The notes under the pieces were generated by a model. That model had not been told where the DNA came from. It saw nothing but the letters and a program-made list of their open reading frames with translations, and made no database searches. A stretch of 64,000 bases of DNA from Podarcis pityusensis. Taxonomy: Eukaryota. A program made the translations under genes and the position numbers. Shown piece by piece: positions 30,611 to 63,884 of this stretch; within the stretch, counting starts at the first letter, position 1; every line of letters starts with the position of its first letter. Location of the stretch: NCBI GenBank assembly GCA_964106645.2, contig OZ067039.1. One strand, given 5' to 3'.

Positions 30611-30763
30611 NNNNNNNNNNNNNNNNNNNNNNNNNNNNNNNNNNNNNNNNNNNNNNNNNNNNNNNNNNNNNNNNNNNNNNNNNNNNNNNNNNNNNNNNNN
30701 NNNNNNNNNNNNNNNNNNNNNNNNNNNNNNNNNNNNNNNNNNNNNNNNNNNNNNNNNNNNNNN
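30611..30763. other. Assembly gap (153 N)
   Basis: Run of N. Confidence 1.
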
Positions 30764-54777: not shown

Positions 54778-54882
54778 GCTGGTGGTTTGTGAGCACATCA
54801 GATGAACAAGGATGGGTCCCAGCTACATGCTTAGAAGTTCAGGATGGAGCCCAGGATGAATTTTCAATGCAACCTGAAGAAG
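54778..54882 (+). CDS. SH3PXD2B: SH3PXD2B coding exon 8 (SH3#1 C-half and linker), 105 nt
   Basis: ttccctttAG|GCTGGTGG...GAAGAAG|GTaaga; encodes (G)[34 protein letters not shown](E). Confidence 0.97.
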
Positions 54883-55774
54883 GTAAGAAAATGGCTTGAG
54901 AGAAGCTCCCCAGTAATTCCTGGGTTTATTATGTGAACTGCTCTAGTCCAGCTAAATTTTTCAGGCTGTTGTCCAGGGAGCTAAAACTCCAGTTTGGTTT
55001 GCATTTTAAAAAGTCCTAGTATCTCTCATCTTTAGCAAGCTCCCATGAAGGCTGACCTGGATATCACTGACAGAGAAGGTGGTGCTAATGAGCTTGCTTG
55101 AGCCTTTTCCAGCCTTCAGTATCCAACTTTTCCTCCATCTTTGAGCCACAAGCCACACCAGCCTTTGATATGAAGAGCGCACATTCTGAATTAAGACCCC
55201 TAAATGGGTGCTTTGTTGGGTAATTTTTTTAAAAAATGACAGCTGCTGTTATCCTATTGTATTGCACCTGAGTAATATTTGCTATGGCTGTCCACACTGG
55301 AAAGTCCCAAGTGGTTTACATGGACCCCACGGTGGTTTCTCTTCCCCTTACTGCTCAAGTTCACATGCACTTCTTTTCAACAATGCTGCAACAGCAGGTG
55401 CTCCTGTGGCATTTGCTAGGTCCTCCCCATGGTGGCTTCTTGTGATGGAATGAGAAATGCAGAGACAGACATCAACAAAACGGGTCAAAAGTGTCCAAAG
55501 GGCACAACACTTTTTGAGGAACTTATTGAGTTTGTTGTGATTTCTTCGTTCCTTCCTTTTTTAGAAGGTGCAGATACTGCTCATTTTTAATTTGACACCT
55601 TTGTTAAGCAAAGCATCCAAGTCTTTCATATGAGCTGTGGAGGGATCAAGGTGCATTGTCTGGTTGTGGAATTGTCTGCTCTATTAAACAAGGCTGATAC
55701 TTTTAAGGAGTGAAGAGCTGCCTCCTTACACCCTGTTTTGTCCCTCTCCTGCTTCCCCAACATGCTCCTCCCAG

Positions 55775-55858
55775 TCCCATGGAGATACTGGTCTCTTCCC
55801 AGGCACGTGGGCCGCCGTCGGACTCTTGGGGACTTGTACACCAGTGGATGGGGTCAAG
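55775..55858 (+). CDS. SH3PXD2B: Candidate alternatively spliced 84-nt cassette exon in the SH3#1-SH3#2 linker
   Basis: Pyrimidine-rich acceptor ...gctcctcccAG|TCCCATGG...GGTCAAG|GTggat. Phase 1 to 1, no stop; encodes VPWRYWSLPRHVGRRRTLGDLYTSGWGQ. Same position and size as the Tks5 alternative insert (...DRRWTLGG..., from memory). Three TGCATG motifs lie downstream. Confidence 0.82.
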
Positions 55859-55927
55859 GTGGATGCTGTGGAGATTGCTTTTATTGACCTCCATTTGTGC
55901 TTTGGACATTTGTCTACTTACCGTTTC

Positions 55928-55970
55928 TGCATGTGCTGCCCATTGTGGTGTTTGCATGCGTTGTTGCATG
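55928..55970 (+). promoter_or_regulatory. Cluster of three RBFOX-binding elements (UGCAUG), putative intronic splicing enhancer
   Basis: TGCATG at 55928-55933, 55953-55958 and 55965-55970, 70-112 nt downstream of the cassette exon donor. Confidence 0.7.

Positions 55971-56424: not shown

Positions 56425-56465
<41 letters not shown>
56425..56465. repeat. (CA)n microsatellite
   Basis: Directly visible. Confidence 0.95.
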
Positions 56466-58367: not shown

Positions 58368-58673
<306 letters not shown>

Positions 58674-62459: not shown

Positions 62460-62509
62460 AGTCACCAAAGATGAGACAGAGACCCCCTCCTCGTCGAGAT
62501 CTCACAATA
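62460..62509 (+). CDS. SH3PXD2B: SH3PXD2B coding exon 11 (proline-rich/polybasic motif), 50 nt
   Basis: ttcttggcAG|AGTCACCA...CACAATA|GTaagt; encodes (K)SPKMRQRPPPRRDLTI. Confidence 0.96.
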
Positions 62510-63884
62510 GTAAGTATTGCCCCCAGTTGCTTTAAGCTGGGGAGTTCTGGTGCATTATTAAATACATAGAACAAAAATAAGCTAGACCAGTGGTGGTGGT
62601 AGAAAGGGACACAGCTTGTCTTGCCGCATTTTGCATTTTGGCATAGATTCCCATGTGCAAACATGTCCGTATATGTAACTTGCTTCTTAATGAATGGATG
62701 AATATGGAAGTGATAAAATAATGCTCTGGCAAGGATCAGACCATTGCCGCAATATATAAAGGGGGAAATAGTGCTTTCTGCATGCATGCCCAGTGCAATT
62801 GATCCCATGCACAAAATTCATTGCATGAGAAGCTTCCCTAATCTTCCTCCTTGTGATCCACATGTGCAGTGGTTCTACCTAATATAGCTGGTGCAGGAGT
62901 GAGGCTTAAACCCCCCCCCCCCATCTGCTTTCTTCTGTCAAGGGTCTCTTGCCTTACGAATGAGTATATACCATTCTGTTTTGAAGTAGCTGCACAGGCC
63001 TCTTCTGTTGTGTTTATGGCCAGCAGATAGCTGCAGCTGCCCACAAAATATACTTCAGGTGTGGCAGTTTCCATAGCACAGGTGCTCTGGAAATAAGCCT
63101 ACTTACCTACCATATATGACAATGTGCACTGCATGTATATAGAGTATATATGCTTAATCTGTCGTGGGAGCATGGACTAAGGAAAGCTTTGCTTATAAGC
63201 CTCATGCATGTGTTTCTCTATGCATACAACTTTCCCTCAAGTTCAGAGATTGACCAAGGAAACGTTGCCTTCTCCATGAGGCCCTGGAGCACACACAGCT
63301 GGCAGGTCAGCAGTTGAAATATGTCCTGTATAGATGTCCCTGAAATAGATTTTGTTTTTTAAAGCAAACTTGGCCCATTTTCCATGTCATTCCTTTTATA
63401 TCATAGTATTAGAAAGTGACTATATTCACTGATAAAAGAGTCTACAGAGAGTTGAAAATAAAACCCCACAGAGGGAACTCTTAGGGTAAGAAGATCCCTT
63501 GGGGAAAAGTGAGGGGTTTTTGCTTCTTCAGCGATAGTTTTCCCAGGAGCAGCCATTCAAAGCAGGGCTGAAGCTGGGATTACTTCTCTGCAGACCTGAA
63601 TTTTAATCTGAGCTGCCCAAGAATCCATGAGCTTCTAAGGCTCTCCTCCCCTTCGAGGCAAGGAGTATGACGTCTGGAAGTTCATTTCCAGGCCCAGACC
63701 TGCTAAACATCTCCAGCATCTTTAATCCCGTGTGGCCTCTCTTGAAAGATGAGCTTGTCAGCAGTAACTGTAAAATCAGTGAAGCCACATGAACCTGCCA
63801 GCCAAATGCTACCTTCCTTGTGGGCTATTTTGGAGGGCAGTGGGGTATATTGTCCCTTGTCATCTTCGGACAGAAGTAGGCTGA

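What the first reader, a model, noticed from the sequence alone, without database searches (positions are those of the whole stretch)
55775..55858. Hidden 84-nt cassette exon inserting 28 aa between the tandem SH3#1 and SH3#2 of Tks4
Seen: an AG/GT-bounded, stop-free, phase 1-to-1 segment of exactly 84 nt inside intron 8. It has a good pyrimidine tract, a weak donor (AAG|GTGGAT) and a local CpG excess. It encodes VPWRYWSLPRHVGRRRTLGDLYTSGWGQ and is not in the ORF track in this frame. Knowledge (from memory): canonical human Tks4 lacks it, while the paralog Tks5/SH3PXD2A has an alternative insert of about 28 aa at the same junction containing RRWTLG (here RRRTLG). In the related organizer p47phox, the two adjacent SH3s form a joint binding groove. 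Inference: this is an ancient splice switch, older than the Tks4/Tks5 duplication, that lengthens the inter-SH3 linker and could alter tandem-SH3 ligand binding or autoinhibition. It may already appear in predicted isoform models, but I know of no functional characterisation.
Basis: partly seen in the sequence, partly recalled or inferred. Interest (0 to 1): 0.75.

Follow-up and report, generated by a model that had tools for sequence, protein, structure and literature searches.

The report
Ancient optional Tks4 linker exon
This is the reptile copy of an already annotated optional exon (human TKS4c exon 8a), conserved from sharks to mammals and matched by a same-sized exon in the sister gene Tks5, which puts a predicted floppy, basic 28-residue loop between two SH3 docking domains and likely loosens their shared binding groove in tissues where RBFOX splicing factors would switch it on.

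Summary
In detail: 55775-55858 is an 84-nt, phase 1-1, AG/GT exon between Tks4 exons 8 and 9. It is already known as human exon 8a of RefSeq TKS4c (NM_001445599.1; 22 of 28 residues identical). PMC13486968 calls TKS4c uncharacterised and proposes the same autoinhibition idea.

Added here:
- 11 annotated isoform pairs in 8 species, shark to marsupial, differ by exactly this 28-mer.
- A bird-type locus keeps 82 of 84 nt and both splice sites.
- Tks5 has a 28-residue phase-1 exon at the same junction (8 of 28 identical ungapped, shuffle p about 0.002); a Tks5-type insert also occurs in lamprey and hagfish. The exon likely predates the duplication.
- Three UGCAUG lie 70-107 nt downstream (shuffle p 0.002), pointing to RBFOX-driven inclusion.
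- The Tks4 insert carries RxxSxP (14-3-3 mode I pattern; 55 of 60 variants) and a basic RRxT site shared with Tks5.

Likely mechanism, untested: inclusion weakens the tandem-SH3 groove, as reported for long Tks5, and adds phosphosites. No junction reads were obtained (8 runs, inconclusive).

The parts
54778..54882 (+). Exon 8 of SH3PXD2B/Tks4: C-terminal part of SH3#1 and the acidic short linker; strong donor AAG|GTAAGA, phase 1
55713..55774 (+). Conserved upstream intron: branch-point-like CCTTAC (pattern recalled), pyrimidine tract and acceptor AG; holds an in-frame ATG at 55762
   Evidence: blastn to L001 is 92.7% over 55713-55863; alignment; open frame
55775..55858 (+). Cassette exon 8a, 84 nt, phase 1-1, encoding VPWRYWSLPRHVGRRRTLGDLYTSGWGQ (first base of the V codon comes from exon 8)
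   Evidence: human TKS4c exon 8a; isoform pairs; 82 of 84 nt identical in L001
55783..55800 (+). Codons for RYWSLP (insert residues 4-9): RxxSxP, the 14-3-3 mode I pattern; absent from the Tks5-type inserts
   Evidence: 55 of 60 distinct Tks4 inserts, Ser in 60 of 60; pattern from PMC2860806; binding untested
55813..55830 (+). Codons for RRRTLG (insert residues 14-19): basic RRxT site, in register with Tks5 RRWTLG
   Evidence: kinase use inferred from recalled basophilic-kinase consensus
55856..55864 (+). Weak donor AAG|GTGGAT; G|GTGG form kept in L001 and implied in read-through ORFs
   Evidence: 15 of 15 read-through ORFs continue with Gly-Gly
55928..55970 (+). Three TGCATG (UGCAUG, RBFOX element) at 55928, 55953 and 55965, i.e. 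+70, +95 and +107 after the exon
   Evidence: 6 of 3000 dinucleotide shuffles reach 3; two copies at +56 and +73 in L001
58498..58615 (+). Exon 9: N-terminal and central part of SH3#2

Best explanation
This is the conserved optional exon 8a of Tks4, which is likely included where RBFOX proteins bind the three downstream UGCAUG elements and which inserts a basic, predicted-disordered 28-residue loop into the acidic SH3#1-SH3#2 linker, likely weakening the joint two-domain groove as reported for long Tks5. Shown: the exon, its frame and phase, its optional use in annotated models of 8 species, its conservation, the UGCAUG cluster and the counterpart exon in Tks5. Inferred: default skipping because of the weak donor; RBFOX-driven inclusion in neurons or muscle; weaker binding of the autoinhibitory PPPRR motif (TAM) and of other tandem ligands, giving a more open Tks4 with different partners; and tuning by phosphorylation of the insert's Thr (shared with Tks5) and Ser (Tks4 only, a possible 14-3-3 site). 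That the exon is real and optional: about 0.97. The confidence below is for the whole mechanism.
For: Human exon 8a / TKS4c. Nine of 10 isoform pairs tested, plus two shark pairs, differ by exactly the 28-mer (8 species). L001: exon 8a 97.6% identical against 80.0% and 86.4% for exons 8 and 9; degenerate codons identical in 22 of 24 against 32 of 60, Fisher p 0.0009. UGCAUG: 3 within 107 nt, p 0.002, and none in the 200 nt after 8 other exon ends, two of them placed approximately. UGCAUG-compatible dipeptides follow the exon in 15 of 15 Tks4 read-through ORFs, against 127 of 1278 background blocks and 0 of 12 Tks5 read-throughs. Downstream UGCAUG enhances inclusion in brain and muscle exons (PMC2777236). 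The linker has 7 acidic and 0 basic residues; the insert has 5 Arg and 1 Asp. Tks4 SH3#1 and SH3#2 are both needed to bind TAM (PMC8348221). Only short-linker Tks5 tandemises (PMC12730246 citing Rufer 2009). AlphaFold leaves the insert mostly under pLDDT 50. Match to the tandem p47phox structure 7yxw: TM(target) 0.77 and rmsd 3.1 without the insert, 0.64 and 8.6 with it.
Against: No junction read or tissue data were obtained, so RBFOX control rests on motifs alone. The read-through footprints are codon-ambiguous and come from related species. Structure evidence is one low-pTM model per isoform (0.38 and 0.35). The long model still scores 0.64 against the tandem structure, above the roughly 0.45 that I estimate one SH3 alone could give. 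TAM is slightly more confident in the long model (378-384 not under pLDDT 50) than in the short one (under 50), the opposite of the simple expectation. The Tks4 and Tks5 inserts share only 8 of 28 residues, so the Tks5 result may not transfer. The 16-residue core is identical from the lizard to six distant vertebrates, more than a mere spacer needs, which favours a specific partner.
Confidence: 0.5

Rival explanations
1. The insert is mainly a docking peptide and the tandem groove still forms. Phospho-Ser in RxxSxP would recruit 14-3-3, or the aromatic-basic stretch would contact acidic membrane or another partner.
For: RxxSxP in 55 of 60 distinct Tks4 inserts and Ser in 60 of 60. 4.7% of shuffles of the insert give Rxx[ST]xP. 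The core 6-21 is identical 16 of 16 across six distant vertebrates while the SH3 domains vary. The long model keeps a partly tandem arrangement.
Against: Motif match only; the lizard protein has two more Rxx[ST]xP matches. Ser and Thr are 11 residues apart inclusive, under the 15 needed to bridge one 14-3-3 dimer (PMC2860806). The motif is altered in the shark, sturgeon and jerboa models, among 5 of 60. It is absent from Tks5-type inserts.
Confidence: 0.27
2. The conservation reflects RNA-level splicing signals; the peptide is a tolerated, low-abundance spacer with no specific role.
For: Synonymous sites are unusually constrained (22 of 24 against 32 of 60) and about 60 nt of upstream intron are conserved. 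Canonical human TKS4L lacks the exon.
Against: Substitutions are mostly conservative (Y/F, W/F, V/L/M). Length and RRxTLG register are kept in both paralogues and in cyclostomes.
Confidence: 0.1
3. The segment also serves as, or lies within, an internal first exon: the in-frame ATG at 55762 would start a Tks4 form lacking PX and SH3#1.
For: The ATG is kept in L001 and appears as Met four residues before the exon in 7 of the 8 amniote-type read-through ORFs. A frog model starts there and two carp-family models begin just upstream of the exon. Tks5 has PX-less forms from internal promoters (PMC4178035).
Against: Only 3 gene models, which may be mis-predictions. The ATG lies inside a pyrimidine tract conserved for splicing. 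No transcription-start data.
Confidence: 0.1
4. A chance pseudo-exon, or an exon no longer used in this species.
For: No junction was seen in 8 runs, which is uninformative because constitutive exon 8 had no cover either.
Against: The peptide is identical to lizard, turtle and bird-type models; splice sites are intact; human has an NM_ isoform.
Confidence: 0.03

Closest known systems
Human TKS4c (SH3PXD2B NM_001445599.1), exon 8a (PMC13486968)
   Same: Same gene, junction, length and frame; 22 of 28 residues identical; the same autoinhibition hypothesis is stated in that paper's discussion.
   Different: Only the species and six residues. The sections read (3.1, 3.2, first part of the discussion, search passages) give no conservation, no Tks5 comparison, no splicing regulator and no motif for it.
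Tks5/SH3PXD2A 28-aa linker insert (alternatively spliced exon 10 of PMC4178035; long versus short Q5TCZ1-3 isoforms of Rufer 2009 as cited in PMC12730246)
   Same: 28 aa, same junction, phase 1, basic, RRxTLG in register (8 of 28 identical ungapped).
   Different: The N-terminal half differs (no RxxSxP in Tks5). No UGCAUG footprint downstream in 12 read-throughs. Exon 10 is predominantly included in mouse (PMC4178035), while canonical Tks4 skips 8a. Equating the insert with 'exon 10' is my inference from its position.
p47phox/NCF1 tandem SH3 with its autoinhibitory region
   Same: GWW-bearing tandem SH3 with an acidic linker; the short Tks4 model matches 7yxw (TM 0.77).
   Different: No linker exon is reported for p47phox. 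The Tks4 insert has neither the tandem-SH3 motif nor PxxP (0 of 66 inserts), so it is not a copy of the autoinhibitory peptide.
RBFOX-activated cassette exons (c-src N1, NMHC-B N30, fibronectin EIIIB; PMC2777236)
   Same: Short frame-preserving exon with multiple conserved UGCAUG in the proximal downstream intron and none in the 200 nt upstream.
   Different: RBFOX dependence and tissue pattern are not shown for this exon.

Membership tests
Orthologue of human SH3PXD2B exon 8a | Lies between the exons ending SH3#1 and starting SH3#2 of a Tks4 gene | tested here: met
Orthologue of human SH3PXD2B exon 8a | 84 nt / 28 aa, homologous peptide | tested here: met
   22 of 28 against P0178, whose insert reads the same as the human one printed in PMC13486968
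Conserved cassette exon | Both included and skipped forms annotated within one species | tested here: met
   11 pairs in 8 species; these are gene models
Conserved cassette exon | Inclusion and skipping junction reads in this species | tested here: inconclusive
   8 of 24 listed runs laid, no joints, exon 8 also uncovered
Paralogue of the Tks5 linker exon | Same junction, length and intron phase | tested here: met
   28 aa; 12 of 12 Tks5 read-through ORFs continue with Gly after the insert, as a phase-1 G|GT donor gives; 68 of 68 inserts start with a G-initial codon; phase read from proteins, not DNA
Paralogue of the Tks5 linker exon | Sequence similarity above chance in ungapped register | tested here: met
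   8 of 28, p 0.0018 (identity) and 0.0006 (BLOSUM); 7 of 27 without position 1, p 0.008 and 0.002
Paralogue of the Tks5 linker exon | Insert prevents tandem-SH3 binding | not testable with these tools
   Models are suggestive only
RBFOX target exon | Conserved UGCAUG in the proximal downstream intron | tested here: met
   indirect
RBFOX target exon | RBFOX binding and RBFOX-dependent inclusion | not testable with these tools
   Needs CLIP or knock-down data
Tandem-SH3 ligand (p47phox AIR-like) | [PAVIL]P[PTAV]R[RP] core or PxxP | tested here: not met
   0 of 66 distinct inserts (motif)
14-3-3 mode I site | RXX(S/T)XP in a disordered region | tested here: met
   55 of 60; pLDDT under 50; pattern
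14-3-3 mode I site | Phosphorylation and phospho-dependent binding | not testable with these tools
   Needs phosphoproteomics and pull-down

The most novel reading that the evidence does not exclude
One exon older than the Tks4/Tks5 duplication became two oppositely regulated switches on the tandem SH3 module. In Tks5 it is included by default. In Tks4 it is RBFOX-activated in neurons or muscle, and in jawed vertebrates it carries a 14-3-3 site, so a kinase can toggle a tissue-restricted, de-repressed Tks4.
Probability: 0.2. Interest if true: 0.55.

Novelty: already known. Interest (0 to 1): 0.3.

Why it matters
Tks4 builds podosomes and invadopodia and is mutated in Frank-ter Haar syndrome. 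The binding studies I read do not mention this isoform. A 2025 paper states that only TKS5 varies in this linker (PMC12730246), and a 2026 paper lists TKS4c as uncharacterised (PMC13486968). The exon itself is not new. These say where to look (brain, heart, muscle) and what to mutate, which makes a stated open question directly testable.

Tried and rejected
RNA evidence: no holder was on record as RNA among the 24 listed runs. X1-X4 gave 7 short contigs, all intronic or unspliced, and no joints. X10, X14, X15 and X17 laid nothing. Exon 8 was uncovered too, and the tool drops human-like contigs, so this says nothing either way.

Other tools: no whole genome is held for this window. VIA-align on the long model listed almost only PX-domain matches, and the short model was not run. 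Pfam found no family for the exon's reading frame. No solved structure of a Tks4 or Tks5 tandem appeared among 12 PDB sequences at E 1e-15. Five of the 6 metagenome loci (L002-L006, 13-residue matches) were set aside as probable chance. Earlier scan notes: nothing by sequence or place, and eight unrelated notes by words.

Rejected readings: CpG excess as special; the insert as a tandem-SH3 pseudo-ligand; the Ser and Thr as a two-site 14-3-3 pair (spacing).

Unresolved: the tree does not place the cyclostome genes (SH-aLRT 81 and 92, quick search). Absence in invertebrates is weak: of 65 parsed representatives, 4 had linkers over 30 aa, all vertebrate, but the parse missed two known inserts; three hemichordate models lack it.

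Literature: searches were. 'TKS4c' occurred in one work only; no listing tied SH3PXD2B exon 8a to RBFOX, 14-3-3 or the Tks5 exon. Subscription papers (including Rufer 2009 and Lock 1998), supplements and splicing databases were not seen and may hold such data.

Full report
Observation. The window holds the middle of an SH3PXD2B/Tks4 gene on the + strand. Exon 8 is 54778-54882 and exon 9 is 58498-58615. Between them, 55775-55858 is bounded by a pyrimidine-rich acceptor (CCCAG|) and the donor AAG|GTGGAT, is 84 nt long and phase 1-1. The spliced frame is open with or without it, and it adds VPWRYWSLPRHVGRRRTLGDLYTSGWGQ. The donor matches 7 of 9 positions of the recalled consensus MAG|GTRAGT, missing +4 and +5. 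The four CpGs are uncommon for the window (2.8% of 84-nt windows) but normal for this gene's exons.

It is already annotated. PMC13486968 (read: abstract, sections 3.1 and 3.2, first part of the discussion, search passages) lists human TKS4c, NM_001445599.1, made by inclusion of exon 8a, with 28 extra residues between SH3_1 and SH3_2. The printed peptide reads the same as the seal insert P0178, which is 22 of 28 identical to the window's. The discussion calls TKS4c functionally uncharacterised and suggests that the longer linker may alter TAM-mediated autoinhibition; the paper's qPCR did not cover it. PMC12730246 (sections 3.2 and 3.4, passages) says only TKS5 is known to vary in this linker and that only its short form tandemises, citing Rufer 2009, which I did not see. 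PMC8348221 (abstract, passages) shows that both Tks4 SH3 domains are needed to bind TAM. PMC4178035 (passages) says Tks5 exons 7 and 10 are alternatively spliced and that exon 10 is predominantly included in mouse. PMC7663256 (passages) does not mention splicing.

Conservation and optional use. A search with the exon's reading frame gave 93 proteins among 161 candidates: 78 with SH3#2 directly after the peptide and 15 genomic read-through ORFs. A second search added placental mammals, more lizards and a shark. Nine of 10 same-species pairs tested and two shark pairs differ by exactly the 28-mer, in 8 species; the tenth pair was a killifish variant extended by 13 residues. These are gene models, not reads. 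Among 60 distinct Tks4 inserts, Ser7, Arg16 and Leu21 are invariant. Thr17-Leu18-Gly19 are invariant by construction of my pattern, which also dropped one model with an unrelated insert (P0215). The hits were chosen by shared words, which inflates conservation. The core 6-21 is identical 16 of 16 between the lizard P0013 and six distant vertebrates, while SH3#1 is 44-54 of 57. One DNA locus was recovered, L001, with bird-type exons 8, 8a and 9 in order. Exon 8a is 82 of 84 nt identical against 80.0% and 86.4% for its neighbours, degenerate codons are identical in 22 of 24 against 32 of 60 (p 0.0009), and about 60 nt of upstream intron and both splice sites are kept. By established knowledge (recalled), this pattern is typical of regulated alternative exons.

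Relation to Tks5. Tks5 proteins carry a 28-residue insert at the same junction, absent from a short form. Ungapped, it shares 8 of 28 residues with the window's insert, including RRxTLG in register (shuffle p 0.0018 by identity, 0.0006 by BLOSUM; 7 of 27 and p 0.008 without the phase-biased first residue). All 12 Tks5 read-through ORFs continue with Gly after the insert, as a phase-1 G|GT donor gives, and all 68 distinct inserts begin with a residue whose codon starts with G. Lamprey and hagfish proteins carry a Tks5-type insert. The tree does not settle where the cyclostome genes branch. Even so, an exon of equal length, phase and motif in both paralogues and in cyclostomes is most simply explained by an origin before the duplication. 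This is an inference. Absence in invertebrates is weakly tested.

Regulation. Three TGCATG lie at +70, +95 and +107 after the exon and none in the 200 nt before it. Six of 3000 dinucleotide shuffles reach three, the 200 nt after 8 other exon ends (two placed approximately) have none, and only one other such cluster exists among the window's 47 copies. L001 has two, at +56 and +73. Dipeptides compatible with UGCAUG occur in the first 50 codons after the exon in 15 of 15 Tks4 read-through ORFs, including fish-type ones, against 127 of 1278 background blocks and 0 of 12 Tks5 read-throughs. These rows are related and codon-ambiguous. Downstream UGCAUG copies enhance inclusion of brain and muscle exons (PMC2777236, passages). 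A weak donor plus these elements predicts default skipping and RBFOX-driven inclusion. No reads tested this.

Protein effect. The short linker has 7 acidic and no basic residues; the insert has 5 Arg and 1 Asp. AlphaFold models of a related lizard's two isoforms (132-row alignments, pTM 0.38 and 0.35) leave the insert under pLDDT 50 except GRRRTLG. Against the tandem p47phox structure 7yxw, the short model gives TM(target) 0.77 and rmsd 3.1, the long one 0.64 and 8.6. This leans towards a disturbed tandem but is weak: one model each, the long one still partly tandem, and TAM slightly more confident in the long model. The insert has no tandem-SH3 motif and no PxxP (0 of 66), so it is unlikely to be a pseudo-ligand. 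It has RxxSxP in 55 of 60 Tks4 variants, the mode I 14-3-3 pattern of PMC2860806 (abstract, passages); 4.7% of shuffles give such a match, and the protein has two others. The Ser and Thr are too close to bridge one 14-3-3 dimer. Reading RRxT as a basophilic kinase site is from recall.

Most likely working. In most cells exon 8a is skipped, SH3#1 and SH3#2 close on TAM, and Tks4 is autoinhibited. Where RBFOX is active the exon is likely included, a basic floppy loop interrupts the acidic linker, the joint groove likely weakens as reported for long Tks5, and phosphorylation of the loop may tune or redirect it (whole chain 0.5). Rivals: a docking peptide with an intact groove (0.27), RNA-level constraint on a neutral spacer (0.1), an internal first exon using the ATG at 55762 (0.1, not exclusive), an unused pseudo-exon (0.03).

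Verdict. The link to the Tks5 exon, the RBFOX signature and the RxxSxP motif were not found in my eight topic searches; subscription papers, supplements and splicing databases were not seen and may hold them. Interest 0.3.

Noticed in passing
window 55762-55764: In-frame ATG inside the pyrimidine tract, kept in L001; one frog and two carp-family models (P0016, P0084, P0089) begin at or just before exon 8a, without PX and SH3#1.
   Followed up: partly
window 62779-62827: The only other cluster of three TGCATG in the window, about 270-310 nt after the small exon near 62461-62511 that encodes the PPPRR (TAM) motif.
   Followed up: no
P0161, P0163, P0164, P0166-P0169 (killifish models): Exon 8a is extended by 13 residues, apparently through a downstream donor, giving a third linker length.
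   Followed up: no
Tks5 read-through ORFs P0391, P0392, P0394, P0395, P0401: Leu-Thr/Ala-Asn about 15-25 codons after the Tks5 exon could reflect a CUAAY element (QKI-type, recalled), hinting at different regulation from Tks4; seen by eye only.
   Followed up: no
P0187, P0188, P0209: Vole, jerboa and one sucker-fish model have changed the Trp before the conserved Ser; the jerboa insert has also lost the Arg and Pro of RxxSxP.
   Followed up: no
window 55775-55858: The exon is stop-free in all three frames.
   Followed up: no
window 56427-56465 and 30611-30763: A CA microsatellite in the intron after exon 8a, and a 153-base run of N.
   Followed up: no
L001: A vertebrate contig with bird-type Tks4 exons inside a metagenome assembly, probably host DNA.
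   Followed up: partly
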